Shown one piece after another: positions 18,788 through 43,664 of a stretch of DNA of 64,000 nt (positions are counted from its first letter, which is position 1; the number at the start of each line of letters is the position of its first letter). The notes under the pieces were generated by a model that saw only the letters and a program-made list of their open reading frames with translations, did no database searches and was not told the origin of the DNA. The stretch lies in assembly GCA_036826375.1 (NCBI GenBank), contig DAISWL010000001.1:104201-168200 (forward strand), in the 5' to 3' direction. This DNA comes from Candidatus Saccharimonadota bacterium (GTDB lineage Bacteria; Patescibacteriota; Saccharimonadia; Saccharimonadales; HK-STAS-PATE-42). The position numbers were made by a program, and so were the translations under genes.

Positions 18788-18833
18788 TAAATACTCACTA
18801 AACTTAAGTTATAATATTTATAAAGGAAGAAAT

Positions 18834-25915: not shown

Positions 25916-26095
25916 CTACTTCTCTTTAGGCTTTTTAGGCGGCTTAGCTGCCTTGAGGATTTTATCTACTGCTTGATTGAACGTCATATTGAGTTTTAAT
26001 GGTCGTTCGTTTGTGCGAACTGGCTTTGCTTCGTAGTCGTCAATTTGCTTTTGTAGCTTCTCGGCCTCTTTTTTTGTTGGCTTACTCTTTGTCAT
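25916..26095 (-). CDS. small Lys-rich hypothetical protein (59 aa)
   Basis: My translation is MTKSKPTKKEAEKLQKQIDDYEAKPVRTNERPLKLNMTFNQAVDKILKAAKPPKKPKEK. It falls below the track cutoff. On the minus strand, TATAAT ends 6 nt before the ATG. Confidence 0.4.
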   Translation of the reverse strand: MTKSKPTKKEAEKLQKQIDDYEAKPVRTNERPLKLNMTFNQAVDKILKAAKPPKKPKEK

Positions 26096-26197
26096 AGCTT
26101 GATTATAGCAAAGAGTGGCGTTATAGATTTTTAGTGACTGCTCATCACTAAATATCGTTATTGCACGTAAAACCCTTTCTTGATAATATAAGCTGAA

Positions 26198-26965
26198 ATG
26201 CTCAAAGATGACAACAAAAAGATTGTTTTGATTACAGGATCATCAAGTGGCCTTGGCGCTTCTCTTGCCAAGGTACTAGTAAAGCTCGATTACACACCCA
26301 TCATCACATACCGTCATAATGAGGTTAAAGCACGAGAGCTAACGTCACTTTTGTCTAAAGAGACTGAGTCTGAGATAATCTGTAGACATCTCGATGTTTC
26401 TAATGAAGATGGTTTTACGGATGTATACTCCGACATTATGAGAACCTACGGTCGCCTAGATACGCTTATTTGCAATGCAGGTTCTGATTTTTACCATGCA
26501 AGCCTTCAGGATATTAAATTAAAGGAATGGCAGGAAGTATTCGGTACTAAAGTATTCGGTACATTTAACAGCGTAATGGCCATGCTGCCTCTACTTAAAG
26601 CAAGTAAAAATCCGAATATAATCATGATATCCGCATCACTGGGCACTAAACCGGATCCTCTAGATCCTGTGTACTCTAGTGCCTGTGCGGCTCTTAATAA
26701 TTTTGCACAGTCATTAGTTTATTCGCTCTCATCGGAAAAGATACGCACTAATGTAATCTGTCCTGGTCCAATGGATACAGGACTAAGCTATTGGACTGAC
26801 TTAAAACGCAGTCAACCTGATATCTTTGCCTCTTTTAAAAGCTCAAACCCAATGAACATGCAAACTGATGCTAACCATATTGCGGAACTTATCTCAGCCA
26901 TTGATACTAATGTAAGCCTAAACGGCAATATACTCTACGCTACCGGCGGCTCTCACCTCAGATAG
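26198..26965 (+). CDS. short-chain dehydrogenase/reductase with atypical active site
   Basis: TGSSSGLGAS Rossmann motif and NAG motif. The catalytic segment reads VYSSACAAL, i.e. YxxxC where the canonical motif is YxxxK. Confidence 0.85.
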   Translation: MLKDDNKKIVLITGSSSGLGASLAKVLVKLDYTPIITYRHNEVKARELTSLLSKETESEIICRHLDVSNEDGFTDVYSDIMRTYGRLDTLICNAGSDFYHASLQDIKLKEWQEVFGTKVFGTFNSVMAMLPLLKASKNPNIIMISASLGTKPDPLDPVYSSACAALNNFAQSLVYSLSSEKIRTNVICPGPMDTGLSYWTDLKRSQPDIFASFKSSNPMNMQTDANHIAELISAIDTNVSLNGNILYATGGSHLR

Positions 26966-26975
26966 AAATGTAATA

Positions 26976-28334
26976 ATGGATATATCAAAGCTTGTTACTG
27001 ATAGCCTAATGTCAAGAGAAGAACTTCTTGCATATATGACTGCCACGTTCGCTACAGACCTAGAGAAGATTAAAGAAGTTGTTTTATATGCTGATAACCA
27101 GGTACCAGATACTGATAGTTTAACATATATACCTCATCATCGGCGTAAAATCTACCTATCCAAAGATGGTGTAATACATATAGCGCCTTCTGAGGGCTTA
27201 CTACGAGTAGAGCATCTACAATTGCAGGTAGAATGCCTGGCATCGTTACTCAAAAAACCTATTCCTTGCAAGGTTATAGGCAAGTATATCTTTTCCGAAA
27301 AGGCACAAGAGTTTATAGATTTGCTAGATGCAAAACGGCTACAAGGCAGATCCGTAGACGGATTAGTTATAGGTAGCCTATGGAACATCAACTACATAAT
27401 TAATAGACGGCTTCATTCAGCACAAATGCAATCTGTCTTTAAGGCGATGGATAAGAAAGAGCTGGGCGAGTATATCGAGTTTCGAGCACGGCAATCAGCA
27501 CTAGAGCAAGCCTCTTTGACTGATGGAATTATTTTGAACAAGAGTGAGCTAGCTACGTTCCGAGAAGGTGCTATTCCGAGTAAAGATGAACAGGATATAG
27601 TCAATAGTTTATACGAAAAGATGGCGTCAAAAAAAATCGCAAGATATAGAGATAATTTTCTGAATAATGACGAAGCAAAGGAGTACGCAGCGCTTGATTT
27701 TATATTCTTCAAGGATTTAGTTGAAAATACCCAAATATTTGATTCAACCTTAGTATCCGAGGAGTCCGCGATATACTCCGACAAGGGTATTACTTATCAA
27801 CTAATCAGCCTTGAAAATGGCATGTTATTAAATATTGGATGGATACACCCAGAGCTCTTAGGTGAGCTTGTTCGGCAGCTGCATAATCGCTATAACCTAA
27901 AGAGCCTTCATATGTATGGCAAGTGCGGGGCAATCGGTGACGCACCTCTTGGCAGTATAGTGACCCCTTGGCAAACACAGTGGAATGACCATATGATTCC
28001 AATTCAAAACAAACTGCAGAACCTAGACGGTACAACTCCAGCCAATTTCTGCTGTGTTCCTTCGCCCCTGATTGAGACTATGTCATGGGGGAAGCTTATG
28101 CGAAGCAGGGACGTTGAATGCGTTGAAATGGAGCTGTATGAAGTTGGCCGCAACCTAAGTCAATCGATCGAATCGTTCATTGTATATTATATTTCAGATA
28201 GGCCTTTTGACAATTATAAGATAGGTCAGCGCTGGACGTTTTTAGAGCAAAAGCTTAAATGTACCAATATACTTGTTGATAGTATTTTTAACTTATACAC
28301 TCACCGCCATCCACAGATATCACCTGGCCCGTAA
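26976..28334 (+). CDS. AMP-nucleosidase-like / nucleoside-phosphorylase-superfamily protein with an unknown N-terminal domain
   Basis: The C-terminal half has three motifs spaced as in PNP_UDP_1/Amn enzymes: YGKCGAIGDAPLGSIV, ECVEMELYEV and VYYISDRPF. The 452-aa size is comparable to AMP nucleosidase. The assignment comes from motif recall only. Confidence 0.5.
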   Translation: MDISKLVTDSLMSREELLAYMTATFATDLEKIKEVVLYADNQVPDTDSLTYIPHHRRKIYLSKDGVIHIAPSEGLLRVEHLQLQVECLASLLKKPIPCKVIGKYIFSEKAQEFIDLLDAKRLQGRSVDGLVIGSLWNINYIINRRLHSAQMQSVFKAMDKKELGEYIEFRARQSALEQASLTDGIILNKSELATFREGAIPSKDEQDIVNSLYEKMASKKIARYRDNFLNNDEAKEYAALDFIFFKDLVENTQIFDSTLVSEESAIYSDKGITYQLISLENGMLLNIGWIHPELLGELVRQLHNRYNLKSLHMYGKCGAIGDAPLGSIVTPWQTQWNDHMIPIQNKLQNLDGTTPANFCCVPSPLIETMSWGKLMRSRDVECVEMELYEVGRNLSQSIESFIVYYISDRPFDNYKIGQRWTFLEQKLKCTNILVDSIFNLYTHRHPQISPGP

Positions 28335-29004
28335 TATTCACTGACCCTGGCCCGCATAAGAACGCTACAGACTGAGCTATTTCCTCAGGCGTATTAATGT
28401 GACGCAGAGGGATATTCGCCAAAGCCTCTTTCTCTTTCTTGGTGTCCATTCCGTAGTTCGTAAGGTCTGTGTATGTTCTTCCTGGAGATATAGCGTTTAC
28501 ACGAACGCCTTTTACGGCAAGTAGCTTTGCGAGTGATTTAGTCAAATATATGATGCCCGACTTTGATATACCGTACTCGATCGACCGAGTGACATATCCA
28601 ACACCCGCTTGAGATGCAATAAAAACAATACTGGAACCAGGCATAAGAAAATGTACAAGTTTTTGAGTCAACAGGTATGGTGTACGTAGATTAATGGCCA
28701 TAGTAATATCCCATGCGTCGGCATCGGCATCTTCAAATGTCGTGCGTTTTTTTATACCAGCGCAGTGAACCAGAATGTCAATATGGTCTATTTTCTCGCC
28801 AAGAATACTGGCAAGCATATCTATATTTGCCGCGTTACTTAAATCCTGTAGTATATGAGTATAATTACGAGATGTAATCTTTTGCTGGGGAGTGTTTTTC
28901 GAGACCCCAAGTACAATGGCACCCTGCATCAGAAACTCTTCCGCTATTGAGCGTCCTATCCCTCGGGAAGCACCCGTTATCACTACAACTTTATTCCTAA
29001 ACAT
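28288..29004 (-). CDS. SDR family oxidoreductase (FabG-like)
   Basis: The start is at internal Met69 of the track ORF (MFRNKVVVITGASRGIGRSIA). It has an intact YGISK (YxxxK) and overlaps the convergent upstream gene by 47 bp. Confidence 0.85.
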   Translation of the reverse strand: MFRNKVVVITGASRGIGRSIAEEFLMQGAIVLGVSKNTPQQKITSRNYTHILQDLSNAANIDMLASILGEKIDHIDILVHCAGIKKRTTFEDADADAWDITMAINLRTPYLLTQKLVHFLMPGSSIVFIASQAGVGYVTRSIEYGISKSGIIYLTKSLAKLLAVKGVRVNAISPGRTYTDLTNYGMDTKKEKEALANIPLRHINTPEEIAQSVAFLCGPGSVNITGQVISVDGGECIS

Positions 29005-29086
29005 ATATTCAAATGTTATTATAACACTAGTAGAAAACCGAAGTAGACTAAAACCTAGCATATTTGTAACGAAAGGATACACCAAT

Positions 29087-29758
29087 ATGAAGACTCTCGT
29101 AAAAGTATGTCGAGTGTTTGATATAGAGACCGCCGAGAAATTGGCTCGACTCGGCGTGCAGTTCATCGGACTGCACGCTATCTTCGATAGGCCTAACCCA
29201 CAAAACACGCTAGCTTACAATCAGATAATCAATACTATGAGAGATTCATACCCTCGGACACGTACCGTACTAGTAACGCGTCTTACTGAGCCTAAAAAAT
29301 TGGCGCAGATTTATAGGAAAGCCCCTACGGACTTTGTGCAGATTTCGGGGCCATGCCCTAGATCCGCCAAAATCAAATTTTTAGAGCTGGCACAAGCCGT
29401 AAATAAGAATGTAAAAATTTTCAATGTCATTTCAGCATCAGAAAATCTTAAAATCAACTCAGAAGATATCATAGGTAATTATGTAGTAATCGATAAGGAG
29501 TTCGCAGGCGGTACTGGAAAGTTAATCCCAAAACAAACAGTGAGCGCGTTAACTCATGCATTAAAGGGTAAAACCATTCTATTAGCCGGTGGGGTTGGTA
29601 GAGTTGATGCTCGTCAACACATAGCCGGATTGTCTGTTGATGGCATTGATGTAATGAGTTCACTCGAGTTTAGTAAGGACGATAAGCGTAAAGATATGCG
29701 AAAAGTATACGCCTTACTTCAGAACGTATGGGGAGATAGTGTATCCGACTCAGTTTGA
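29087..29758 (+). CDS. phosphoribosylanthranilate-isomerase (TrpF)-like TIM-barrel protein
   Basis: The start is at Met66 of the track ORF, after SD AAAGGA. KVCRVFDIETAEKLARLGVQFIGLH, DKEFAGGTGKLIP and ILLAGGVGRVDARQHIAGLSVDGIDVMSSLE align by eye with the TrpF motifs KICG..A...GAD.iGfvf, GGTG and LAGGL....GVDVSSGVE. Confidence 0.6.
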   Translation: MKTLVKVCRVFDIETAEKLARLGVQFIGLHAIFDRPNPQNTLAYNQIINTMRDSYPRTRTVLVTRLTEPKKLAQIYRKAPTDFVQISGPCPRSAKIKFLELAQAVNKNVKIFNVISASENLKINSEDIIGNYVVIDKEFAGGTGKLIPKQTVSALTHALKGKTILLAGGVGRVDARQHIAGLSVDGIDVMSSLEFSKDDKRKDMRKVYALLQNVWGDSVSDSV

Positions 29759-29933
29759 GGACAGACGTAGATTGTGGGTTTACAACAGCAAAGGTCGCAC
29801 TAGAAGGATCAAAAGAGACCAAAAAGCCCACCGAGAAGAAAACAGAAATTAACTAAGATATTGAATGATCAAATACGGAGGTATGACAAGGTGGAATTGC
29901 TTACATACATGCCGTAATGGCATACTCAACTAT

Positions 29934-31718
29934 TTATATTCTTTCTACCGGCTTGACACCTATAACGTCCAAGGCGCTTGAAAATACAGTTGATACAGCA
30001 GTACTGAGCTCCATTTTCTTATTAGTTTCGGCGAGATCTTCACTGATAAAACGCTCCTTCGCATAAAGAGAGTTGAACGAATGTGCAATGTCCAGTAAGT
30101 ATTCGACGAGCACATTAGGTGAATAGTCGCTCAGAGCGGTTTTGATGTGCTCAGGATAATAAAGAAGCTTAACGATTAACTCACGCTCTCGAGCTGTGTA
30201 GTTACTATCTGATAGACCAGATGTAATACTTCCCATGTTTTTTGCGATAACCGTGTTAACTCTGGCGAATGTGTACAAGAGATAAAGTCCGCTATCACCC
30301 TCGAGGCTAACCGCCTGTTGTATATTGATGCTAGTATCGGTCGTTCGAGCCGGCTTGAGTAACGCACACTTGATTGCGGCTACAGCAATCTGATCAGCTA
30401 GCATAGGAGTGTAGCCACGATCGGAGTTAAGTAGTGTATTCTTTACTTCATCGAGAAGATCATCTATCAATAGAGTGTTACCTCCACGTGAGCTCATTTT
30501 CTTCTTAGCCCCAGATTCATCAGTAATATTTACTAAACCATATGGAATATGAGCGAAATCGTTATAATTGCCGACTCCTAATTGCTCACAGACAGCAAAC
30601 ACCTGTTTCATAGCAACACTTTGTTCAGGCCCAATGACCCACAGGAGCTTGTCTGCTCCATAGGAGTCTTTCTTCAATTTCGTCAGCGCGATGTCCTGAG
30701 TGATATATAGAGACGTGCCATCGGATTTAAGCATGATAGTATCCGGTATATTATATGCGTCTAGATTGGTAAGGATAGCGCCGTTTTCGAGTCTTTTGAA
30801 AGTACCTTTTTCTAGACCCTTGGCTACAAGATCCTTACCTTGATTATAGTGTTCGTGTTCGTGCCATATTTTATCCCAATGGTTGCCTACTCGATCCAAG
30901 GTCTCTGTGATACCCTGATGAGCGTATGAAATGATCAGCTCCCATAACGCCCATATATTCTTGTCTCCGGCTTCCCATAAAACAGCCATCTGACGAATTG
31001 CGTCTTGGGCGTCCTTATCGTTCTTAAAATCTTCACTCGCCAATGTATAGCATTCGCCCACAAAATGATCCGGCTTGACGTTGATCTCGCTCGGCGTTAG
31101 CCATTCATCTTTGTGTTGTATCCAATAATCCACGTCATATGTAGTTTTTTTGTCTTTGTCGCGTCTTTCATATTTGAGATAGCCCCACATAGCCTTTGTA
31201 ATGGCAATACCCCTATCATTATCGACGCAGTCTCGTATGACTTTAGCGCCTGAATATTCAAGAATTTTGGCGATTGACATTCCTACTAAATTATTTCTAA
31301 GATGACCCACGTGCATCGCCTTATTAGGATTTGGAGAAGTATGTTCAATGACCCATGTTTCACCTTCAAGCATCGTATTCTTGCCGTATGCGCTACCATG
31401 CTTTTTAATATCCTTGATAACAGCAGATAAGGAAACATTAGACAGTCTAAAGTTGATAAATCCAGGCATTATAGCCTCTGTACTAAATATATCATTTGGT
31501 ATCTTATTTATTTCTTCTACTATTTCCTGAGCAATTTTCAACGGAGATTGAGATAGCTCCTTCGCTAGCTGAAACGAAATATTACTGACGTAATCCGCTT
31601 TCTTTTTATCGGTTGGTACAGATACAGTGGAGTGATGCGGCGACAAACTAGGATATAAAGAGCTAACTGCCGCATCTATGGCTTTTCCTAGTGTGTCAGT
31701 CAATTTATCATGGATCAC
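29934..31718 (-). CDS. argS: arginine--tRNA ligase (island-encoded)
   Basis: 594 aa with EHTSPNPNKAMHVGHLRN (HIGH), KKMSSRGG (KMSKS-like) and a C-terminal DALR-type anticodon-binding region. The GTG start overlaps the asnB-like stop (GTGA). Confidence 0.9.
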   Translation of the reverse strand: MIHDKLTDTLGKAIDAAVSSLYPSLSPHHSTVSVPTDKKKADYVSNISFQLAKELSQSPLKIAQEIVEEINKIPNDIFSTEAIMPGFINFRLSNVSLSAVIKDIKKHGSAYGKNTMLEGETWVIEHTSPNPNKAMHVGHLRNNLVGMSIAKILEYSGAKVIRDCVDNDRGIAITKAMWGYLKYERRDKDKKTTYDVDYWIQHKDEWLTPSEINVKPDHFVGECYTLASEDFKNDKDAQDAIRQMAVLWEAGDKNIWALWELIISYAHQGITETLDRVGNHWDKIWHEHEHYNQGKDLVAKGLEKGTFKRLENGAILTNLDAYNIPDTIMLKSDGTSLYITQDIALTKLKKDSYGADKLLWVIGPEQSVAMKQVFAVCEQLGVGNYNDFAHIPYGLVNITDESGAKKKMSSRGGNTLLIDDLLDEVKNTLLNSDRGYTPMLADQIAVAAIKCALLKPARTTDTSINIQQAVSLEGDSGLYLLYTFARVNTVIAKNMGSITSGLSDSNYTARERELIVKLLYYPEHIKTALSDYSPNVLVEYLLDIAHSFNSLYAKERFISEDLAETNKKMELSTAVSTVFSSALDVIGVKPVERI

Positions 31719-33460
31719 TGTAAGCTCTTTTCTAAAATTGCTATGCTACATAACTTCCACTGCATTGACAGTGGTAATTCTTTAGTATATTTTAACAAAC
31801 TTTCATCTATTAGGCTAGATAAAAACTGGGAGTTAGTGAGCAGCCCGTCGCTGATAAGACTTTCAATAAACTCTTTACGCTTATCAGGAAGATCGGGGAA
31901 GCCAAGCTTCTTTCGTTTAGTTATGTACTCCGGAACATGTTTCTGTCCTATTTTCCTTAATATATATTTCTCTTTGTTATCAAGCATCTTGAAACGAGAA
32001 GGTACGGAACTCAGATACTCTACAAGGCGATAGTCCGTAAAGGCCGTTCTACATTCCACCGACCAATTCATTGACTGTTTATCTTCTTGCGCAAGCAGGG
32101 CTGGTAAATGAGTCTTGACTCCGAAACGTAATACGGAATTAAGCGTATCGTCCGTAGCGTAAGGAACGAAGTGTTTAGTAATATTTTCGTCTATTATTCG
32201 CTTCAGTAGATCCTTATCAATAGCATTCTTTAGCGGTGATTGGAGATACCAATACTGCTTAAACACCTCACTGGTTGTATAGTTATTTTCATCTCTAAGA
32301 AAACTATAATAATCCAAGTACCCTAAGAATATTTCATCTGCGCCCTGGCCGTTAAGCACGGCTTTCAGACCTTGTTGATGAACCGCTTCATAATTTCTAC
32401 TAATATAGATATAAACCTGGTCGAGTGACGGCTCTTCCATAGCTCTTGTAACTTCGATGAACCTTTCTAACGCCAGATCTTGATCTCGTACTTGTACTTT
32501 ATGATGCGGTATATCATATTCTTTGCAAAATTTAGATGCATAGTAGAGGTCTTCATCTATATGTTCTCCTTTTGCAAGTGTGAAGCAATGAGGTTTATAG
32601 CTCAAATCTCTCATCGCCAGTGACGTCAGGAGTGTACTATCCAATCCTCCAGATAGTACCATCCCTATATTTGTATCAAGTGAGGTTCGAAGCGCAACGG
32701 AATCGATAAGAATTTCCTCAACATTCCGTAAAATTGTCTCTTCATCATCGTTGATTTCATTTTTTTGAAGTTGCCAGTACGCTATCGTTTCTTTGGTATT
32801 TTTTCGCGTATCTATAGCTATGTAGTTACCTGATGGGAGATTGTAGATATCCTTAATGTGCGTACGTGTTTTATCGCTCCAGAAATTAAAAACTAAATCC
32901 GAGACTATTCTATCGGTATCGAGCGTCCACTTCTTATTGTGACAAACGTCTTTAATAAACTTGATCGTTGAGCCGAAGTAAAATGTACCTGAAGATATAT
33001 CGTCATAGTAGTAAAGTGGCTTCTCGCCGATTCTATCACGAGCTATTATAAGCAGACCTGATGAATCGTCATGAATCGAGAGAGCGAAAGGGCCGTTAAA
33101 TTTCGAGAAGCAGTTCGTTCCCCAATGGTCATATGCAGATAAAATAACCTCACTATCTGAAGTTGAGAAAAACTCGTATCCAAGTGCTTGTAGTTCAGAC
33201 TTGATTGCTCTGAAGTTATATATTTCGCCGTTAAAAACCAAAGTCTTGCCATGCTTAACCATTGGCTGATGACCGTGAGAGCTAAGGTCAACTAGACTCA
33301 ATCTGCTATGCGTTAAACCGACGGTATTCTCCGTGTTGAAATATACACCGAAATCATCTGGCCCCCTACGTTCATGCTGCTTCTTTGAAACACTGACGAA
33401 TGTTTCGTTATTCAAATTATTACTTTGTTTATTACAATAGTAGCCGCTAATGCCACACAT
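31715..33460 (-). CDS. asparagine-synthetase (AsnB)-type glutamine-dependent amidotransferase
   Basis: N-terminal MCGISGY (Ntn Cys2 nucleophile) and PP-loop MVLSGGLDST. 581 aa. Confidence 0.88.
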   Translation of the reverse strand: MCGISGYYCNKQSNNLNNETFVSVSKKQHERRGPDDFGVYFNTENTVGLTHSRLSLVDLSSHGHQPMVKHGKTLVFNGEIYNFRAIKSELQALGYEFFSTSDSEVILSAYDHWGTNCFSKFNGPFALSIHDDSSGLLIIARDRIGEKPLYYYDDISSGTFYFGSTIKFIKDVCHNKKWTLDTDRIVSDLVFNFWSDKTRTHIKDIYNLPSGNYIAIDTRKNTKETIAYWQLQKNEINDDEETILRNVEEILIDSVALRTSLDTNIGMVLSGGLDSTLLTSLAMRDLSYKPHCFTLAKGEHIDEDLYYASKFCKEYDIPHHKVQVRDQDLALERFIEVTRAMEEPSLDQVYIYISRNYEAVHQQGLKAVLNGQGADEIFLGYLDYYSFLRDENNYTTSEVFKQYWYLQSPLKNAIDKDLLKRIIDENITKHFVPYATDDTLNSVLRFGVKTHLPALLAQEDKQSMNWSVECRTAFTDYRLVEYLSSVPSRFKMLDNKEKYILRKIGQKHVPEYITKRKKLGFPDLPDKRKEFIESLISDGLLTNSQFLSSLIDESLLKYTKELPLSMQWKLCSIAILEKSLQ

Positions 33461-33461
33461 C

Positions 33462-34889
33462 TTATAGATCCTTCTTTAAAACTTTACCCGTCGCCGTTCT
33501 CGGTAATAAGCTGACAAATTTAACTGTAACGATACTACTAAGAGCTTCAGGCAGTGAATGTAGAATATTATCTTCAAGCAGAGATTTATCAATATTATCT
33601 TCTCCAACTACAAAAAGTTGCAATTCACTGGCAGATAGGAATTTATAGCTCATATCTTTGATCTGTTCATTTGATAATAAGAGAGGTATATTGACGGATG
33701 CCGTATTTACTAAGTCAGTAGGTAAATCCATTGCATCTTTTTTACGGCTGACAAGATAAAAGAAATGGTCTTTATCTTCATAGAATAAATCACCTGTTTT
33801 GAACCACCCGTTAACATTGGCACTTTCATTTTGCTCATGATCGTCGTAAGAAGCAACCATCGGTCCTTTAATTAGTAGCTCGCCAATAGCTCCGTCTTCA
33901 ACGTCCATATAATCCTCATCGACGATTCGACATTCAACCTGCCTACATGCTTGCCCGACGCTGCCTAGTCGTAATTCCGCATTACTATCGGGAAGTAGAA
34001 AATGGGTTAAAGATGTTGTTTCCGTGAGACCATATCCTTCCGTGATCAACACGTCAGTTTTTTCTTTCATTTTTCTCACTACTGGTATCGGGATACTCTC
34101 TCCGCCGGAATCACAAATACGTAAAGACGAAAAATCGTATCGACTCAAGTTAAGACTGGATAAGCTTTTATAGAAAACCGGGTTTACAACCAATATGTTA
34201 ACTTCATGCTTCTCGATCAAATTTGCGATTGCTTCAGCGGAATCTTCCTCTGGGCATATTACAATTGTCTTACCTAGGCTCATAGGCGCCACACAACACG
34301 GAATAACACTATAGCAATAATGGAAAGGTAGAGAAAATAGGATCGTGTCATTATCCTTGAGCTTATAAATTCTTTCATACTCACTCACGGCCCATGCTAT
34401 ATTATCGTTCGTATAGTTTACTTTCTTAGGTATGCCCGTAGTGCCGCTAGTATGTGCAGTAAATAATGTTTTGTTATCAGGGTGTATTATTTCAAGCTGC
34501 GTCTTATCCATCGTGTCGTTATCAATACTATCTAATTCCGGAATACGGACAATGTTTACAGACTCTAATTGTTGTTCTTTATCTGCATACACTACATCGA
34601 CATCATGGAGCATGACATTCAGTCCACTTTTGTTCATAGTCCGATCGATAACGAGAGGGGTAATGCCTCGGAACATTAGGGCATACATGAAAAATACCCA
34701 CTCCGCCTTACGGCTGGGAAGAATGGCGACCTGAACATCCTTGCTAATCTGCTTACTCTCCAGATAAGCCATGTACTTGTCTATTGCTTCTTTTATTGAT
34801 GTACTATTAAATGTCCTATCTCCATCAATAATCTTGAGAGTACTCTCATCTGATATAAGAATTTGTTTGACCGATTCTAAGTAACTCAT
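33462..34889 (-). CDS. ANL-superfamily adenylate-forming enzyme (acyl-CoA/amino-acid ligase-like)
   Basis: AHTSGTTGIPKKV, EGYGLTET, WFKTGDL, SRKKDAM and the C-terminal PRTATGKV lysine motif. Confidence 0.88.
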   Translation of the reverse strand: MSYLESVKQILISDESTLKIIDGDRTFNSTSIKEAIDKYMAYLESKQISKDVQVAILPSRKAEWVFFMYALMFRGITPLVIDRTMNKSGLNVMLHDVDVVYADKEQQLESVNIVRIPELDSIDNDTMDKTQLEIIHPDNKTLFTAHTSGTTGIPKKVNYTNDNIAWAVSEYERIYKLKDNDTILFSLPFHYCYSVIPCCVAPMSLGKTIVICPEEDSAEAIANLIEKHEVNILVVNPVFYKSLSSLNLSRYDFSSLRICDSGGESIPIPVVRKMKEKTDVLITEGYGLTETTSLTHFLLPDSNAELRLGSVGQACRQVECRIVDEDYMDVEDGAIGELLIKGPMVASYDDHEQNESANVNGWFKTGDLFYEDKDHFFYLVSRKKDAMDLPTDLVNTASVNIPLLLSNEQIKDMSYKFLSASELQLFVVGEDNIDKSLLEDNILHSLPEALSSIVTVKFVSLLPRTATGKVLKKDL

Positions 34890-34893
34890 CTAA

Positions 34894-36201
34894 TTATAGC
34901 CTTTCGCTCAAAGCATTATCTAGTATTTGCATGCCCTGTTCTAGCATTTCATTTTTAATTACAAGCGGCGGTGTAATACGTAGAAACGACCCATGAGGCC
35001 CATTAGGCATCGATAAGAGCAAACCATTCTTAAAGCTATCTCTAGCTATTTTTTCGGCCAAAGTTTTACTGTGCTGACCATCAATTGTGATATGCAAACT
35101 AGCGACCATACCAAAGACCTCGGAATAAGATATAGCATTTTGATATTTCTCCGCTAATTTGTCTATTTGAGTTTTAAAGCTCCTAGAGACATCGAGAAGA
35201 TTCTGTCGGAATTCTTTATTCTCCATAAATTTGATATTAGCTATAGCCGCAACGCAGCTCATAGGGTTTGCGGAATGAGTAGTGGCGATATCAAGTTCAT
35301 TACTTTTGTTAAAGATGTCTCTTTTTACAGCAATAGCAGACATGGGCAGAGAAGATGTGAGACCCTTGCCTAGGCAGATAATATCAGGGCTGATATCAAA
35401 ATGTTCGAATGCAAATCGTCTTGAGGTTCTATAGAATCCAGATTGTATTTCATCCACAATCAAAAGAGCGTCAGTTGCGTTGCAGAACTCAATCACTTCA
35501 TTTATTAGTTGCTGGTCGGCAACAAAGACGCCCTTACCTTGATAGGGCTCCATAATTATCCCTGTCACCATATACTCAGACAGTCCGTACTTATCTAGCG
35601 TATCCGAAATGTTCTTCTGAAATGATACGCTTTGTGTTTTGCTTGAACGACTCTGAAAAGGAAGCTTTATATAATGAACTTTATCACCTTTGTCGGACGT
35701 GAAAAGGCTATGACGAGTGATCCCTGAGATTGAATCAGACTGCAAAGTATTTCCATGGAAAGCATTATAGAAAGAGACAATCACTGATTCTGCCTGATTA
35801 TGGTGATCGAGGGCTACTTTAATTGAACTCTCGACAGCCTCTGATCCGGATGACATGAAATGCAAGCCGTAGGATTCTCCTGTAGAATCGTCTAAAAGCT
35901 TTCCGAGCTGTTCGGCTAACTCAAGCCGATATCGATGTGGGAAATTATATGTTGCAAGAAGGGGTTCTTCGAGCGCGTTCTTCAAGGCATCGACTACAAA
36001 TTCATTCGAGTGACCAGAGTTCGCGACGGCTATGGCAGACGTGAAGTCTATCCATGCATCTCCATTTCTATTAAAGACAAGTGCACCCTTTGCGCTATGC
36101 CACATTAGAGGATAAAAGTCTGTATGCATTGACGCGTGTTCAAGCATTTTTAGTCTATTGAGGTCGTCTTTCTCTTCTACAGAGGAAACATATGTAAACA
36201 A
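34894..36201 (-). CDS. class-III (fold type I) PLP aminotransferase
   Basis: VDEIQSGFYRTSRRFAFEH and the PLP-lysine segment ICLGKGLTSS. The TTG start is preceded by GAAGGGG. An alternative start is Met19. Confidence 0.85.
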   Translation of the reverse strand: MFTYVSSVEEKDDLNRLKMLEHASMHTDFYPLMWHSAKGALVFNRNGDAWIDFTSAIAVANSGHSNEFVVDALKNALEEPLLATYNFPHRYRLELAEQLGKLLDDSTGESYGLHFMSSGSEAVESSIKVALDHHNQAESVIVSFYNAFHGNTLQSDSISGITRHSLFTSDKGDKVHYIKLPFQSRSSKTQSVSFQKNISDTLDKYGLSEYMVTGIIMEPYQGKGVFVADQQLINEVIEFCNATDALLIVDEIQSGFYRTSRRFAFEHFDISPDIICLGKGLTSSLPMSAIAVKRDIFNKSNELDIATTHSANPMSCVAAIANIKFMENKEFRQNLLDVSRSFKTQIDKLAEKYQNAISYSEVFGMVASLHITIDGQHSKTLAEKIARDSFKNGLLLSMPNGPHGSFLRITPPLVIKNEMLEQGMQILDNALSERL

Positions 36202-36319
36202 ATCTAAAGCCCCTTCATTTACCCAAGCTCGCTTATGTCGGCTACCCCAACTGAGTACTCTAGCTGTGATTTTAGCAGTAGGACTCTTTGTGGATTAGTT
36301 ACAATACTGGAGCTGCCTA

Positions 36320-37395
36320 CCTTATAATATCAAATGCAACCGTTAAAATACAATATGTAATCAAGAAAGGATTTACATGAACCATTTAACGGCTGCGGAT
36401 CGAGGCAGTATAGAAACACTGCTTCAAGAACATTATACAAATAAAGAAGTAGCTAGGCGACTGCTAAGGAGCCCTAGCACTATTAGTCGAGAAATAAAGA
36501 AGGGATTAGATGGTTTAGGGATTTACCGTTCCTGGATAGCACAGGTAGCCTATGAATTTAATCGAAAGCGCTCCAAGCAGATGCCAAAGCTAGATAATCC
36601 AACCAACCATAGGCTCAGGGGTTGGATTGTAGATTGCCTACAAAAGGGTTGGGATCCAAGCATGATCTCTGGTCGTATGAAAGCAGAAGGATTCGTTATT
36701 GTTTGCGCTGAAACAATTTATAGCTGGATCTACTCCAGCGAATGGGCAAAAGGTGAAAAGCTTTACCAGTATCTACGCCAGGGTAAAAAACACAGAACAA
36801 AACATAGGGGTAGATCAGCTCAAAAGTCTAGAATACCCAACAGGGTTTCTATCCATGATAGACCATCAGTTGTTGACGCCAGGAGTCGTATTGGGGACTG
36901 GGAGGGAGATAGTGTTATATACACCCATAAACATGCCATTAATTCCGTTAATGAGAGGTTGAGCGGATTAGTGGAGTTCACTAAGCTTACTAGAAAAACA
37001 GCTTTGAAAACTGCATCCGCCATAATAACTAAACTTAAAGGACGTGTTGCCCATACAATTACATTCGATAATGGGAGTGAGTTTATAAACCATAGCCTCA
37101 TAACAGAAGCACTGGGTATTAGTGTTTACTTTGCTGATCCATACTCTTCCTGGCAACGTGGTTCCAATGAGAACCTTAACAGACAACTAAGAGCTTATCT
37201 CCCTAAAAGGTCTGATATTAGAGACTTAGAGTAGGAAGAACTAGATGATATAGTTTGGGAGCTAAATAACAAGCCACGTAAAAGATTCCTATGGCATACG
37301 CCACAGGAAATCTATGACTGGCTTGTAAGCAACCCAGGTAAAGCGCTAGACTTATGTAAGGTTGCGTTTGGTTCTAGAATTTAGGTTTATACTTA
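36320..37395 (+). mobile_element. IS30-family insertion sequence (boundaries approximate)
   Basis: The transposase gene is flanked by imperfect inverted repeats sharing CAAATGCAACC (left, about 36331-36341) and GGTTGCGTTTG (right, 37360-37370). The ORF ends inside the right repeat, as is typical for IS30. Confidence 0.7.
36377..37384 (+). pseudogene. IS30-family DDE transposase interrupted by one in-frame TAG
   Basis: N-terminal HTH, then DDE residues in GDWEGDSV, TFDNGSEF and GSNENLN. The in-frame TAG at 37232-37234 is followed in the same frame by the conserved IS30 tail EELDDIVWELNNKPRKRFLWHTPQEIY, ending at TAG 37382-37384. Confidence 0.85.
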
Positions 37396-37461
37396 ATTCT
37401 CTTCACTATTAGCTTATACTCAATAATTTATCTTGAATTCAATCATAGCCTGATCTTAATA

Positions 37462-37629
37462 TATAGCCCCCGCAAAACGAATACGGGTCTTTTTGGATGA
37501 TAGATCGGAGTGATGAAATAATCTGTTTTTTGAATGAAATGTATCCGTAGATACATTGAACTCAAAAAACAGTTATTTCAGCCTGTGAGGTGCATTTAAA
37601 AAGATGGGTTTTGTTTTGCGGAGGCTATA
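37462..37629. repeat. 168-bp hairpin element with terminal inverted repeats, copy 2
   Basis: TATAGCCCCCGCAAAACGAA ... TTTGTTTTGCGGAGGCTATA. It is about nine-tenths identical to 3538-3704 and sits between the IS30 element and rarA at the right edge of the island. Confidence 0.75.
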
Positions 37630-37633
37630 TAAG

Positions 37634-38779
37634 CTAAAATCCCACACCTTTAGGTAGATTGCCATCTTTTTCGCTAGATTGATCACTATAACCGAGTTCT
37701 TTCATTAGTTTAGTTGGAGCATTTCTAAGATGCATCGGAATTGGTGCATTTGGATATTCACTAGCTAAATCTTCAGATTCTTTCATTTTATCGGTAATCT
37801 CACGAGATTTTTTAGAGCGCGCTAAAGCCTCACAGGTATGAAAAAGATTGTAGCGACATTCCGGTAGTCCGATCATCTTGCACGCATCCAGAGTGGCCAC
37901 CGCTAAGCTTAAGGCTCCGTTGCCAGCCAAGCCGATATCCTCACTAGCAAAAATGACCATTCGCCTAGCAATAAAAACTGGATCTTCACCCCCAGCCAAC
38001 ATCCGCGCCATGTAATAACGTGCCGCTTTCGGATCGGAGGCTCGCATACTTTTAATGAAGGCGCTGGTGGTATCGTAATGCTGATCGCCCAACTTATCGT
38101 AAGCCTGCCTGGCTTGATGCGAAGCTAATAATTCATTAACTTTTTTAGGAGTGATCAATCCGGATTGGTTGAGGTTATCTAGGGCTTCCATGTTTCCGAG
38201 AGCAACTCTGGCATCGCCTCCGCTAGCATCAGCAATTAAGTTTAACGATTCCCCACTGAACTTCGATTTAAGTTTAGCTTGAGCTCGTTTTAAAATCTTT
38301 AAAAGATCTTCGGGATTATGCGGTTTTAAAACTAGAACTCGGGAGCGACTAATCAGCGGAGTTATAATCTCGAAACTTGGGTTTTCAGTAGTTGCTCCAA
38401 AAAAGATTAGCCGCCCGCTTTCAACAAACGGGAGCAGTGTATCTTGCTGAGCTTTATTGAATCGGTGGATTTCATCAACAAAAAGAATAGTTTTTTGACC
38501 CAGATTCTGGTTGATTTCGGCCGTTTTAGCCGCTTCGGTTATATCTTTTTTACTAGCCGTAACCGCGCTTAATTCAATTAATTCTGTATTTTCAAGATCG
38601 GCGATTATCGCTCTGGCGAGAGTAGTTTTACCACTTCCCGGAGGCCCCCATAAAATTAAGTTTAGCGGTTTTTGACTTTGAATAACCTGAGTTAGAATTT
38701 TAGTCTGACCAATAAGATGCCCCTGCCCAATGACATCTTTTAGGCTTTTTGGACGCATAATCTCTGCAAATGGTTTCAT
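37634..38779 (-). CDS. rarA: replication-associated recombination protein A (RarA/MgsA AAA+ ATPase)
   Basis: LWGPPGSGKTTLARAI, FVDEIHRFNKAQQD and a C-terminal MgsA-type helical domain. Confidence 0.9.
   Translation of the reverse strand: MKPFAEIMRPKSLKDVIGQGHLIGQTKILTQVIQSQKPLNLILWGPPGSGKTTLARAIIADLENTELIELSAVTASKKDITEAAKTAEINQNLGQKTILFVDEIHRFNKAQQDTLLPFVESGRLIFFGATTENPSFEIITPLISRSRVLVLKPHNPEDLLKILKRAQAKLKSKFSGESLNLIADASGGDARVALGNMEALDNLNQSGLITPKKVNELLASHQARQAYDKLGDQHYDTTSAFIKSMRASDPKAARYYMARMLAGGEDPVFIARRMVIFASEDIGLAGNGALSLAVATLDACKMIGLPECRYNLFHTCEALARSKKSREITDKMKESEDLASEYPNAPIPMHLRNAPTKLMKELGYSDQSSEKDGNLPKGVGF

Positions 38780-42264: not shown

Positions 42265-43664
<1,400 letters not shown>

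What the first reader, a model, noticed from the sequence alone, without database searches (positions are those of the whole stretch)
29934..36201. Translationally coupled operon: class-III aminotransferase, ANL ligase, AsnB-type amidotransferase and ArgRS
Four minus-strand genes are packed with 4-nt, 1-nt and minus-4-nt (GTGA overlap) junctions, which indicates one operon and probably coupled translation. Each keeps its catalytic hallmarks. The aminotransferase has its PLP lysine. The ANL enzyme has the A3, A5, A7 and A10 motifs. The AsnB homolog has Cys2 and the SGGLDS PP-loop. The arginyl-tRNA synthetase is full-length with HVGH and KMSSR.

An aaRS fused into an operon with two amide-bond-forming or adenylating enzymes and an aminotransferase, on a horizontally acquired island, is not a housekeeping arrangement.

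Established precedents suggest two readings. In the first, the aaRS is a self-resistance copy inside a cluster that makes an aaRS inhibitor, as with IleRS and mupirocin, TrpRS and indolmycin, SerRS and albomycin, ThrRS and borrelidin, and LeuRS and agrocin 84. In the second, a dedicated aaRS feeds aminoacyl-tRNA to a biosynthetic step, as in VlmL/VlmA in valanimycin and the tRNA-dependent steps in pacidamycin and blasticidin S.

I know of no described ArgRS-linked cluster with this composition, and none in a reduced-genome lineage. A third possibility is that the island copy has simply replaced the host argS.
Basis: partly seen in the sequence, partly recalled or inferred. Interest (0 to 1): 0.78.

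Follow-up and report, generated by a model that had tools for sequence, protein, structure and literature searches.

The report
ArgRS coupled to conserved amide-forming cassette
In a Saccharibacteria genome, an apparently ordinary arginyl-tRNA synthetase gene is the last gene of an operon with three enzymes of an uncharacterised accessory cassette, and in every relative I could inspect (other CPR bacteria, apparently archaea of the DPANN group, and a low-GC Bacilli MAG) that cassette again lies next to a tRNA synthetase gene, so the link looks functional even though the product is unknown.

Summary
Four minus-strand genes (class-III aminotransferase, ANL ligase, AsnB-like amidotransferase, ArgRS) are joined by 4-nt, 1-nt and GTGA-overlap junctions, and all the motifs claimed are present.

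The ArgRS does not look like a special copy:
- It differs from the consensus at 1 of 135 columns that are at least 90% conserved in its type.
- Its nearest relatives are CPR ArgRS, including a stand-alone gene at 59% identity.
- In a second lineage, a 99%-identical ArgRS remains where the cassette is missing (dN/dS 0.05).
- Base composition gives no sign of an island.

The linkage itself is not an accident. The ANL/AsnB-like core is usually accompanied by a PLP enzyme and an SDR; the SDR orthologue in this window is at 26198-26965. This core lies beside an aaRS gene in all 11 contexts inspected. Nine have ArgRS, from at least four deeply separate lineages and in five arrangements. One has GluRS and one has ProRS. 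None of 79 generic ANL loci shows this.

The AsnB-like enzyme has Gln where E. coli AsnB has Glu348, so it is probably not an asparagine synthetase.

Most likely the cassette makes a small amide-bearing metabolite whose synthesis or action is tied to the neighbouring aaRS. Whether the aaRS supplies the pathway, is its target, or is only co-regulated is unresolved. Whether a second argS exists could not be tested.

The parts
34894..36201 (-). Class-III (omega-type) PLP aminotransferase; first gene of the operon (TTG start, SD GAAGGGG).
   Evidence: Pfam Aminotran_3 1.1e-72. It is below every NCBIfam equivalog cut-off; the best matches are acetylornithine, GABA and DABA aminotransferases. Best PDB matches are PuuE/GabT and AcOrn-AT. 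Orthologues are 66-68% identical in L007/L098, 52% in L010, 44% in L011 and 36% in L097.
33462..34889 (-). ANL-superfamily adenylate-forming ligase of a small, distinct family with the motif ET[TSC]SLTHF and an atypical C-terminal domain.
   Evidence: Pfam AMP-binding 2.4e-53 with no AMP-binding_C hit. The orthologue family comprises about 37 clusters (E below 1e-79), followed by a gap to 1e-53. 44 columns are invariant, including the A3, A5 and A7 motifs and the A10 lysine. The best PDB match is MenE at only 4e-31.
31715..33460 (-). AsnB-like glutamine amidotransferase (Ntn glutaminase domain plus PP-loop synthetase domain) with Gln at the position of E. coli AsnB Glu348.
   Evidence: for the domains. 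The closest solved relative is the hydroxyamidotransferase 7ylz (5e-44), ahead of E. coli AsnB 1ct9. NGQGADE, or SGQGSDE in L014, is invariant in all 11 family members where E. coli has SGEGSDE.
29934..31718 (-). Arginyl-tRNA synthetase, full length, canonical; GTG start overlaps the AsnB-like stop codon (GTGA).
   Evidence: TIGR00456 366.8 bits against a cut-off of 261.65. It deviates at 1 of 135 columns that are at least 90% conserved in its type. It is 59% identical to a stand-alone ArgRS on a 1.15-Mb contig. It is the only ArgRS-like sequence in the 64-kb window.
26198..26965 (+). Classical SDR; orthologue of the SDR that accompanies the cassette elsewhere. Here it is separated from argS by three species-specific genes.
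   Evidence: Identity is 75% to the SDR of L007, 67% to L098, 48% to L010, 40% to L011 and 38% to L097, the same ranking as AT, ANL and AsnB. The nearer SDR at 28288-29061 is only 20-27% identical to these. Pfam adh_short 2.9e-38.
36202..36376 (-). 175-nt upstream intergenic region; the presumed promoter and 5' leader of the operon.
   Evidence: Sequence read. No Rfam family matches it. The promoter scan is at chance level. The assignment as promoter region is an inference from position only.
36377..37234 (+). IS30-like transposase ORF bordering the operon. It is a neighbour, not a conserved part of the cassette.
   Evidence: HTH_38 4e-13, but rve only 22 bits against a cut-off of 32.6; 285 aa. 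It is absent from all other cassette loci.

Best explanation
The cell's ordinary arginyl-tRNA synthetase gene is the last, translationally coupled gene of an operon. The first three genes of that operon, together with an SDR 3 kb away, form a conserved accessory enzyme cassette.

Shown:
- The cassette core is an ANL ligase plus an AsnB-like amidotransferase with Gln at the Glu348 position. It is usually accompanied by a PLP enzyme and an SDR.
- It occurs in CPR bacteria, in loci that appear archaeal (one protein is named Nanoarchaeota by NCBI), and in a 24%-GC Bacilli MAG.
- Wherever it could be inspected it lies beside an aaRS gene: ArgRS of at least four deeply separate lineages, once GluRS and once ProRS.
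- The ArgRS is canonical, is not co-inherited with the cassette, and remains when the cassette is absent.

Inferred:
- The SDR and the aminotransferase install an amine on a small scaffold.
- The ANL enzyme makes an acyl-adenylate and forms an amide bond.
- The AsnB-like enzyme uses glutamine-derived ammonia to turn a carboxylate into a carboxamide.
- The product contains or mimics the amino acid of the neighbouring aaRS. The aaRS is kept in the same transcription unit because the pathway draws on, or interferes with, that charging step.

The ArgRS is a co-opted housekeeping gene, not a divergent resistance paralogue.
For: Operon and motifs.

The ArgRS is ordinary:
- Its best hits are CPR/Saccharibacteria ArgRS at 45-73% identity.
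- A stand-alone orthologue (59% identical) lies on a 1.15-Mb contig, and no ANL family member has a longest contig of that length.
- It deviates at 1 of 135 conserved columns; the median for its type is 2.
- Cassette-linked ArgRS share no convergent substitutions.

The cassette is an accessory unit separate from argS:
- L095 (1.05-Mb contig) has a 99%-identical ArgRS but lacks the 6271-bp AT-ANL-AsnB-SDR-MTase segment of L011. It keeps the first 8 nt of the AT ORF.
- ArgRS dN/dS between L011 and L095 is 0.053.

Recurrent aaRS linkage in different arrangements:
- Downstream and coupled: window, L007, L098.
- Downstream, with the SDR gene between it and the AsnB-like gene: L010.
- Divergent: L011, L012.
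- Upstream and co-directional: L097.
- Embedded between cassette genes: L096, L014.
- GluRS, divergent: L099.
- ProRS, in the same operon: L013.

The ArgRS lineages differ while the cassette genes give consistent rankings. L010 has AsnB 60% but ArgRS 25% identical to the window. L097 has AsnB 41% but ArgRS 42%.

Control: none of 79 generic ANL loci (about 1.45 Mb of the 1.47 Mb scanned) has an ArgRS, GluRS, ProRS or AsnB-like gene within 10 kb. The one locus that does, L014, is the closest relative of the family in that scan.

The AsnB-like enzyme is not a bona fide AsnB: Gln replaces Glu348 in all members.
Against: - No enzyme of a family known to use aminoacyl-tRNA (Fem/GNAT-type transferase, CDPS, LanB/PEARL) is in the window operon.
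- The ANL and AsnB-like sequences show almost no residues that co-vary with the specificity of the neighbouring aaRS. There are only weak candidates: ANL position 125, AsnB positions 415 and 441. The core may therefore act on the same substrate everywhere.
- The product, the substrates and co-transcription are all unobserved.
- Contexts were reached through a similarity-ranked list, so they are not phylogenetically independent samples.
- Whether the genome holds a second argS is unknown.
- ArgRS, GluRS and ProRS all serve glutamate-family amino acids. An arginine deiminase and ArgG/ArgH lie nearby in L010. This fits a purely metabolic link equally well.
Confidence: 0.45

Rival explanations
1. 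Classical self-resistance. The cassette makes an inhibitor of ArgRS (of GluRS or ProRS in the variant clusters), for example an aminoacyl-adenylate-like compound. The adjacent aaRS is a dedicated, insensitive copy that protects the producer, with GNATs as a second line of immunity.
For: - A conserved biosynthetic core with aaRS neighbours of varying specificity, plus frequent GNATs, is the pattern reported for the tiarin family of aaRS inhibitors (bioRxiv 10.64898/2025.12.02.691738).
- GNAT genes lie in or next to the cluster in L010, L012, L096 and L014.
- The L012, L096 and L099 variants carry nucleotide-processing genes: GTP cyclohydrolase II, an amidohydrolase-like protein, HAD and phosphodiesterase. 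That would suit a nucleotide-like moiety.
- ArgRS is embedded inside the operon in L096 and L014.
Against: - The window ArgRS is canonical (1 of 135 deviations).
- Linked ArgRS share no signature.
- ArgRS is not co-inherited with the cassette.
- It persists under strong purifying selection where the cassette is absent.
- In tiarin clusters a housekeeping duplicate was always found. Here none is seen among the top 120 hits of either ArgRS search on the 371-kb or the 1.05-Mb contigs, which is weak evidence.
- No conserved exporter is present.
Confidence: 0.2
2. Metabolic co-regulation. The cassette belongs to glutamate-family (arginine, proline, glutamate) amino-acid or nitrogen metabolism in auxotrophic, arginine-fermenting, reduced-genome organisms. 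It sits next to the cognate aaRS for the same reason that amino-acid biosynthetic genes sometimes do: common control by amino-acid supply.
For: - All three aaRS specificities seen (Arg, Glu, Pro) belong to the glutamate family. The rough chance of that is about 0.01-0.04 (my estimate).
- The aminotransferase is most similar to acetylornithine, GABA and ornithine aminotransferases.
- A bona fide arginine deiminase (TIGR01078 533 bits, cut-off 489), ArgG, ArgH, a GNAT and an M20 peptidase flank the cassette in L010. An ADI-superfamily gene flanks it in L097.
- RelA/SpoT genes adjoin the locus in L097 and L014.
- The ANL and AsnB-like active-site residues do not change with aaRS identity.
Against: - No known glutamate-family pathway uses an ANL ligase or an AsnB-type amidotransferase.
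- The AsnB-like enzyme consumes glutamine.
- The variant loci carry secondary-metabolism-type genes: IucA/IucC, methyltransferases, radical SAM enzymes, an APH-like kinase fusion.
- No T-box or other amino-acid-sensing leader is found at any cassette.
Confidence: 0.2
3. There is no functional link. The adjacency is inherited gene order or chance in small, densely packed genomes, and argS merely reads through from an upstream operon.
For: - CPR genomes are compact and often mix unrelated genes in operons (general knowledge).
- The three window-like loci share one arrangement by descent.
- The cassette can be lost without argS.
Against: - Linkage is seen with at least four unrelated ArgRS lineages, plus GluRS and ProRS, in at least five arrangements, apparently in both bacteria and archaea.
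- With about 20 aaRS genes per roughly 1000 genes, the chance of one lying within two genes of the block is about 8% per independent event (my estimate). Five or more independent events give well below 1e-5.
- None of 79 control ANL loci shows the linkage.
Confidence: 0.05

Closest known systems
aaRS genes inside biosynthetic clusters as self-resistance (mupirocin/IleRS, indolmycin/TrpRS, albomycin/SerRS, borrelidin/ThrRS, agrocin 84/LeuRS; tiarins with variable aaRS)
   Same: An aaRS gene sits in or beside a conserved set of biosynthetic enzymes. As in the tiarins, the specificity of the aaRS differs between variants of the cluster and GNATs are frequent neighbours.
   Different: Here the aaRS is a canonical member of an ArgRS type that also includes stand-alone genes of relatives. 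It is not inherited with the cluster, stays when the cluster is absent, and no duplicate is known. The chemistry (ANL plus AsnB-like) is unrelated to any of those pathways. The carriers are CPR bacteria, apparently DPANN archaea, and a Bacilli MAG of very low GC. The list of classical examples is from my own knowledge.
Dedicated aaRS feeding a tRNA-dependent step (VlmL/VlmA in valanimycin; LysX, the MprF-LysRS fusion)
   Same: An aaRS is co-located with enzymes that could need its product.
   Different: No Fem/GNAT-type, CDPS or LanB-type aminoacyl-tRNA-using enzyme is present in the window operon. In the precedents the aaRS is an extra copy (my own knowledge).
Dapdiamide DdaG/DdaH pair (ANL amide ligase followed by AsnB-type amidotransferase)
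   Same: Adjacent ANL and AsnB-type genes that would act one after the other, forming an amide bond and then a carboxamide. The L012 and L096 variants also carry a PLP enzyme of the PALP fold next to the pair.
   Different: The resemblance is recalled from memory. No sequence comparison with DdaG or DdaH was possible. The dda cluster has no aaRS.
AsnB-family amidotransferases of secondary or osmolyte metabolism (TsnB9 hydroxyamidotransferase, PDB 7ylz; NAGGN amidotransferase AsnO, TIGR03104)
   Same: 7ylz is the closest solved relative by sequence (5e-44, aligned over residues 1-527). TIGR03104 is the second-best NCBIfam match (305.8 bits).
   Different: The score is far below the TIGR03104 cut-off of 570. 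TsnB9 keeps the Glu (SGEAADE), whereas this family has Gln (NGQGADE).
aaRS genes linked to the metabolism of their own amino acid (for example argS-lysA of corynebacteria, hisS-hisZ)
   Same: A housekeeping aaRS shares an operon or neighbourhood with metabolic enzymes.
   Different: The partner enzymes here belong to no known arginine pathway. The examples are from my own knowledge.

Membership tests
Arginine-tRNA ligase (class I ArgRS) | Three-domain architecture (N-terminal Add-1 domain, catalytic Rossmann domain, DALR anticodon-binding domain) and a score above the equivalog cut-off | tested here: met
   Pfam PF03485, PF00750 and PF05746 are all above their cut-offs. TIGR00456 scores 366.8 against 261.65.
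Arginine-tRNA ligase (class I ArgRS) | HIGH and KMSKS-type signature motifs | tested here: met
   HVGH and KMSSR are present in the translation.
Arginine-tRNA ligase (class I ArgRS) | Arginylation of tRNA-Arg | not testable with these tools
   This needs an enzyme assay.
Cluster-borne self-resistance aaRS | A second, housekeeping aaRS of the same specificity elsewhere in the genome | not testable with these tools
   Only 64 kb of the genome is available and holds one ArgRS. No second ArgRS appears among the top hits on the same 371-kb or 1.05-Mb contigs, which is weak evidence.
Cluster-borne self-resistance aaRS | The cluster copy is divergent from, or carries substitutions relative to, ordinary orthologues | tested here: not met
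   1 of 135 conserved columns deviates (I to V at position 382). Linked ArgRS share no signature.
Cluster-borne self-resistance aaRS | The aaRS is inherited or lost together with the cluster | tested here: not met
   ArgRS identities are incongruent with those of ANL, AsnB, AT and SDR. The ArgRS is kept in L095, which lacks the cassette.
Cluster-borne self-resistance aaRS | Co-location with biosynthetic enzymes | tested here: met
   11 of 11 contexts.
tRNA-dependent biosynthesis with a dedicated aaRS | An enzyme of a family known to use aminoacyl-tRNA encoded with the aaRS | tested here: not met
   Pfam finds only Aminotran_3, AMP-binding and GATase/Asn_synthase in the operon. The GNATs in some relatives are small single-domain acetyltransferases.
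Asparagine synthetase B (bona fide, glutamine-hydrolysing) | N-terminal nucleophile Cys and the PP-loop SGGxDS | tested here: met
   MCGISG and SGGLDS are present. TIGR01536 scores 387.5 against 267.1.
Asparagine synthetase B (bona fide, glutamine-hydrolysing) | The catalytic Glu348 of E. coli AsnB (motif SGEGSDE); its importance is from my own knowledge of the AsnB literature | tested here: not met
   It aligns to NGQGADE. The Gln is invariant in all 11 family members.
ANL adenylate-forming superfamily | Core motifs A3, A5 and A7 and the A10 lysine | tested here: met
   These residues are invariant in 23 family members. Pfam AMP-binding 2.4e-53.
ANL adenylate-forming superfamily | A typical C-terminal domain (Pfam AMP-binding_C) as in CoA ligases | tested here: not met
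   PF13193 does not hit the window protein or any family member. More distant ANL hits do carry it.
Class-III aminotransferase | Fold-type I class-III domain with the PLP-binding lysine | tested here: met
   PF00202 1.1e-72 over residues 31-431; the lysine is in CLGKGL. No NCBIfam equivalog cut-off is reached, so the substrate is unassigned.
Horizontally acquired genomic island | Base composition deviating from the surrounding genome | tested here: not met
   GC z-scores run from -0.13 to +1.2 and GC3 z-scores from 0.28 to 1.56, measured against 40 genes of the window.
Horizontally acquired genomic island | Presence/absence polymorphism between close relatives, or flanking mobility genes | tested here: inconclusive
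   The cassette, but not argS, is an indel between L011 and L095, with no repeats at the borders. In the window an IS30-like ORF adjoins the operon. All six contigs of this species that were shown carry the block.
Dapdiamide-type DdaG/DdaH pair | Sequence orthology to DdaG and DdaH | not tested
   No reference sequences were available. A tblastn of the AsnB-like protein against plasmids gave at most 32% identity, to asnB or NAGGN amidotransferase genes.

The most novel reading that the evidence does not exclude
The ANL/AsnB-like cassette makes a previously unknown family of small aaRS-directed antimetabolites (mimics of an amino acid or of an aminoacyl-adenylate). Its target is indicated by the adjacent synthetase: ArgRS in most cases, GluRS or ProRS in variants. 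The producers are CPR bacteria, DPANN archaea and wall-less-type Bacilli, which would use the compounds against hosts or competitors and rely on co-expression of their own synthetase for protection.
Probability: 0.25. Interest if true: 0.9.

Novelty: new variant of a known kind. Interest (0 to 1): 0.7.

Why it matters
CPR bacteria and DPANN archaea are thought to have almost no secondary or accessory metabolism, and most of their genes have no known function.

This is a compact enzyme module shared between those groups and a very low-GC Bacilli lineage. It has repeatedly ended up next to a tRNA synthetase gene of a different lineage each time, so there is a strong genomic signal that can be tested.

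The possible outcomes are:
- a new way in which a housekeeping synthetase is tied to a small-molecule pathway;
- a new class of synthetase-directed compounds from organisms not known to make any;
- an unrecognised route in arginine or glutamate-family metabolism of obligate symbionts.

The finding also gives a simple marker for mining the family: AsnB-like with Gln at the Glu348 position, next to an ANL ligase carrying ET[TSC]SLTHF.

Tried and rejected
1. A genome-contig scan with the full ANL alignment. The scan was still useful later: it gave 79 control loci and L014.
2. A metagenome-contig scan with the family-specific stretch ET[TSC]SLTHFL. It gave only one confirmed locus, the Nanoarchaeota-named contig already known. 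A viral contigs pattern scan found nothing.
3. Promoter and terminator scans over 26000-37500 were at the level of shuffled sequence and are uninformative.
4. Rfam on the window and on seven related loci found no leader or riboswitch at any cassette. The only T-box (L014, 18370-18583) belongs to another gene.
5. A search for residues in ANL or AsnB-like that track the specificity of the neighbouring aaRS gave only weak candidates.
6. A search for a shared 'resistance' signature in cassette-linked ArgRS found four positions. They look explained by ancestry, since the unlinked P0011 shares three of them; position 469 lies outside the catalytic motifs.
7. The split ArgRS of L012 cannot serve as evidence for a pseudogene and hence a second copy. 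The frameshift is the loss of one T in a run of four and may be a sequencing error.
8. The 452-aa ORF, the PRAI-like gene, SDR2, the IS30-like ORF and MgsA were tested as cassette members. The first, second, fourth and fifth have no homologue in the other cassette loci; SDR2 matches their SDRs only weakly, at 20-27% identity.
9. A tblastn of the AsnB-like protein against plasmids found no close relative (at most 32% identity).
10. Literature searches found no description of this gene combination. The nearest conceptual precedent is the tiarin preprint.
11. I considered and did not adopt these ideas: AsnB-like as a direct citrulline-to-arginine amidotransferase; a tRNA-dependent transamidation; a puromycin-type aminonucleoside; a uronamide sugar for surface glycans. 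Each fits some genes but none is testable here, and none explains all the variants.

Full report
**1.

The window carries four consecutive minus-strand ORFs: 34894-36201, 33462-34889, 31715-33460 and 29934-31718. I read the junctions directly. They are TAA-ttag-ATG, TAA-g-ATG, and a GTGA overlap of the AsnB-like stop with the GTG start of ArgRS. Purine-rich Shine-Dalgarno-like stretches precede the starts of the first three genes; none was noted before the GTG start of argS.

Pfam and NCBIfam confirm a class-III aminotransferase, an AMP-binding (ANL) enzyme, a GATase/Asn_synthase protein and a three-domain ArgRS. The ArgRS passes the argS equivalog cut-off.

The organism is a member of Candidatus Saccharibacteria (CPR). 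This rests on the names NCBI gives to the identical ArgRS and ANL proteins.

**2. The ArgRS looks like the cell's ordinary enzyme**

- Its 120 best database relatives are 44-73% identical ArgRS; the few that carry source names are all CPR.
- The relative on a 1.15-Mb contig (59% identical) is a stand-alone gene with unrelated neighbours.
- Against 118 sequences of its own type, the window protein departs from the consensus at only 1 of 135 columns that are at least 90% conserved, a conservative Ile to Val change. The median for the type is 2.
- Cassette-linked ArgRS share no distinctive substitutions.
- The 64-kb window contains no other ArgRS-like sequence.
- GC and GC3 of the four genes lie within about 1.6 SD of the other genes of the window. 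Composition gives no support for a recently acquired island.
- The only mobility-related feature is a bordering IS30-like ORF whose integrase domain scores below the Pfam cut-off.

**3. The three upstream genes belong to a conserved accessory cassette**

The ANL protein defines a small family. About 37 clusters have E-values below 1e-79, then there is a gap to 1e-53. The family has its own motifs, such as ET[TSC]SLTHF, and an atypical C-terminal domain.

In every locus I could inspect, the ANL gene is adjacent to an AsnB-like gene, usually with tight junctions. That AsnB-like protein keeps the N-terminal Cys and the PP-loop. It has an invariant Gln (NGQGADE, or SGQGSDE in L014) where E. coli AsnB has Glu348 (SGEGSDE). 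From the literature I know this residue is required for asparagine synthesis.

The closest solved relative of the AsnB-like protein is a hydroxyamidotransferase of secondary metabolism (7ylz), not AsnB. It is therefore an AsnB-family amidotransferase but probably not an asparagine synthetase.

An SDR travels with the pair. The window's orthologue is at 26198-26965. It is 75, 67, 48, 40 and 38% identical to the SDRs of L007, L098, L010, L011 and L097, the same ranking as the other cassette genes. The nearer SDR at 28288-29061 is unrelated to these.

Four neighbours have no counterpart in the other cassette loci: the PRAI-like gene, the 452-aa ORF, the IS30-like ORF and MgsA. The second SDR matches their SDRs only weakly, at 20-27% identity.

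**4. The cassette and argS are separable**

L011 carries ArgRS divergent from AT-ANL-AsnB-SDR-MTase. L095, a 1.05-Mb contig, has an ArgRS 99% identical to that of L011 in the same neighbourhood, but it lacks exactly the 6271 bp of the cassette. Only the first 8 nt of the aminotransferase ORF remain, and there are no repeats at the borders. The 8-nt remnant suggests that L095 lost the cassette.

Between the two ArgRS genes dN/dS is 0.053. The synthetase is therefore maintained whether or not the cassette is present.

**5. The cassette is nevertheless always next to a synthetase**

The contexts are as follows.

| Locus | Arrangement |
|---|---|
| Window, L007, L098 | AT-ANL-AsnB-ArgRS |
| L010 | ArgH, ArgG / GNAT-M20-ArcA-AT-ANL-AsnB, SDR, ArgRS |
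| L011 | ArgRS divergent from the cassette |
| L097 | ArgRS-AT-ANL-AsnB, SDR, ADI-like |
| L012 | ArgRS divergent from phosphodiesterase-IucA/IucC-HAD-GTP cyclohydrolase II-amidohydrolase-like-ANL-AsnB-PALP |
| L096 | GTP cyclohydrolase II-amidohydrolase-like-ANL-AsnB-PALP-ArgRS-GNAT |
| L099 | GluRS divergent from 274aa-ANL-AsnB-aminotransferase |
| L013/L094 (ANL protein named Nanoarchaeota by NCBI) | MTase-ANL-AsnB-radical SAM-racemase-ProRS |
| L014 (Bacilli MAG, 24% GC) | RelA-aminotransferase-PHP-SDR-AsnB-ANL/APH-ArgRS-MTase-GNAT |

The linked ArgRS fall into at least four lineages that are only 23-37% identical to one another:

- Two CPR types, which I call A and B. Type A contains the window enzyme; L097's ArgRS is a more distant relative of it (42% identical).
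- An archaeal/Thermus type, whose best PDB match is Pyrococcus ArgRS 2zue at 1e-90.
- The Bacilli enzyme.

The cassette genes give one consistent ranking of relatedness and ArgRS gives another. L010 has AsnB 60% but ArgRS 25% identical to the window. L097 has AsnB 41% but ArgRS 42%. The association has therefore formed or been kept several times with whatever synthetase the host has.

As a control, I searched the 79 other ANL loci returned by the failed genome scan (about 1.45 Mb of the 1.47 Mb scanned). None has an ArgRS, GluRS, ProRS or AsnB-like gene within 10 kb.

My rough estimate of the chance of an aaRS lying within two genes of the block is about 8% per independent event in a genome of about 1000 genes. 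Five or more independent events make chance very unlikely. These contexts were reached through a similarity-ranked list, so a tree-aware survey is still needed.

**6. What it does**

The shown facts are the enzyme classes and the linkage. The chemistry is inferred:

- an oxidoreductase and a PLP enzyme make an amine;
- the ANL enzyme forms an acyl-adenylate and an amide bond;
- the AsnB-like enzyme converts a carboxylate into a carboxamide using glutamine.

The pairing of an ANL amide ligase with an AsnB-type amidotransferase recalls dapdiamide biosynthesis. That comparison is from memory and untested.

Why a synthetase is always adjacent is not resolved.

*Dedicated resistance copy.* Four observations weaken this reading: the canonical sequence, the lack of a shared signature, the lack of co-inheritance, and the persistence of ArgRS without the cassette. 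It is not excluded, because copy number could not be determined. Some observations also speak for it. A recent preprint describes a peptide family (tiarins) in which a conserved core with variable aaRS neighbours and GNATs marks aaRS inhibitors. Several loci here have GNATs and nucleotide-processing genes.

*Supply reading.* This lacks any recognisable aminoacyl-tRNA-using enzyme.

*Metabolic reading.* Arg, Glu and Pro are all glutamate-family amino acids. Arginine deiminase, ArgG and ArgH lie nearby in L010. The core enzymes' conserved residues do not change with the aaRS. However, no known pathway of that family uses these enzymes.

No leader RNA was found at any cassette.

My best statement is that a housekeeping synthetase has been drawn into the expression unit of a small-molecule amide pathway. 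That pathway uses, mimics or perturbs the synthetase's amino acid.

**7. Novelty and score**

I found no description of this gene combination. The general idea of an aaRS gene beside biosynthetic genes is known. The new features are these:

- The synthetase is the native-type, canonical enzyme.
- The linkage recurs with unrelated synthetases across CPR, apparently DPANN, and a very low-GC Bacilli MAG.
- The cassette is a distinct ANL/AsnB-like (Gln for Glu348) family.

I classify it as a new variant of a known kind and score interest at 0.7. The main uncertainties are argS copy number, the product, and how far the sampled contexts represent the whole family.

Noticed in passing
ArgRS proteins P0001-P0120 versus P0243-P0364 (not window coordinates): CPR ArgRS split into two deeply separated types: 27-36% identity between them and at least 44% to the query within each. 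Both types include proteins named Nomurabacteria and Paceibacterota. This means either old paralogy or replacement by a foreign gene.
   Followed up: partly
window 36377-37234 (+): An IS30-like ORF lies directly upstream of the operon. The HTH_38 domain is clear, but the integrase core scores only 22 bits and the ORF is 285 aa, so it is probably degenerate. A weak 12-nt inverted repeat lies at 36265-36276 and 37633-37644.
   Followed up: partly
window 37460-37631: Two hairpin-forming inverted repeats lie in the intergenic region between the IS30-like ORF and the MgsA gene: 37460-37481/37610-37631 (22 nt, 91%) and 37523-37545/37550-37572 (23 nt, 87%). There is no Rfam match.
   Followed up: no
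window 26976-29758: Three genes sit between argS and the cassette's SDR in this species only: a 452-aa ORF with no Pfam hit (26976-28334), a second SDR (28288-29061) and a PRAI-like TIM-barrel gene (29087-29758). The PRAI-like gene is unexpected if, as is usual for CPR bacteria, this genome lacks tryptophan synthesis (not checked).
   Followed up: partly
window 42274-43641 (+): The tRNA-guanine transglycosylase is 455 aa, and the Pfam TGT match is split into two stretches, which suggests an inserted segment.
   Followed up: no
window 41175-42104 (-): An HTH-Fic (AMPylase-type) protein.
   Followed up: no
window 17897-19856 (+): A class-I Trp/Tyr-type aaRS gene (18774-19856) overlaps by 14 nt an upstream 296-aa ORF with no Pfam hit. 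This may be another aaRS gene coupled to an unknown gene.
   Followed up: no
L012 1088-2757 (-): The ArgRS next to this cassette is split by the loss of one T in a run of four (CGTTTTAGT to CGTTTAGT). It is either a sequencing error or a pseudogene. A pseudogene would imply a second argS in that genome.
   Followed up: partly
L098 14029-17490; L097 74-859; L014 3894-5348: A type-IV-secretion gene set lies 2 kb downstream of the cassette in L098. RelA/SpoT-family genes adjoin the cassette/ArgRS locus in L097 and L014.
   Followed up: no
L014 9866-12241 (+): In the Bacilli MAG the ANL enzyme is fused to a C-terminal APH-like kinase domain (791 aa), and the gene order is AsnB-like then ANL. Similar 784-794-aa ANL/APH fusions appear among the more distant database hits (P0186, P0198).
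   Followed up: partly
L014 18370-18583 (+): A T-box leader (102 bits) lies upstream of an 848-aa ORF. The organism therefore uses T-box control for another gene, but no such leader was found at the cassette/argS operon.
   Followed up: no
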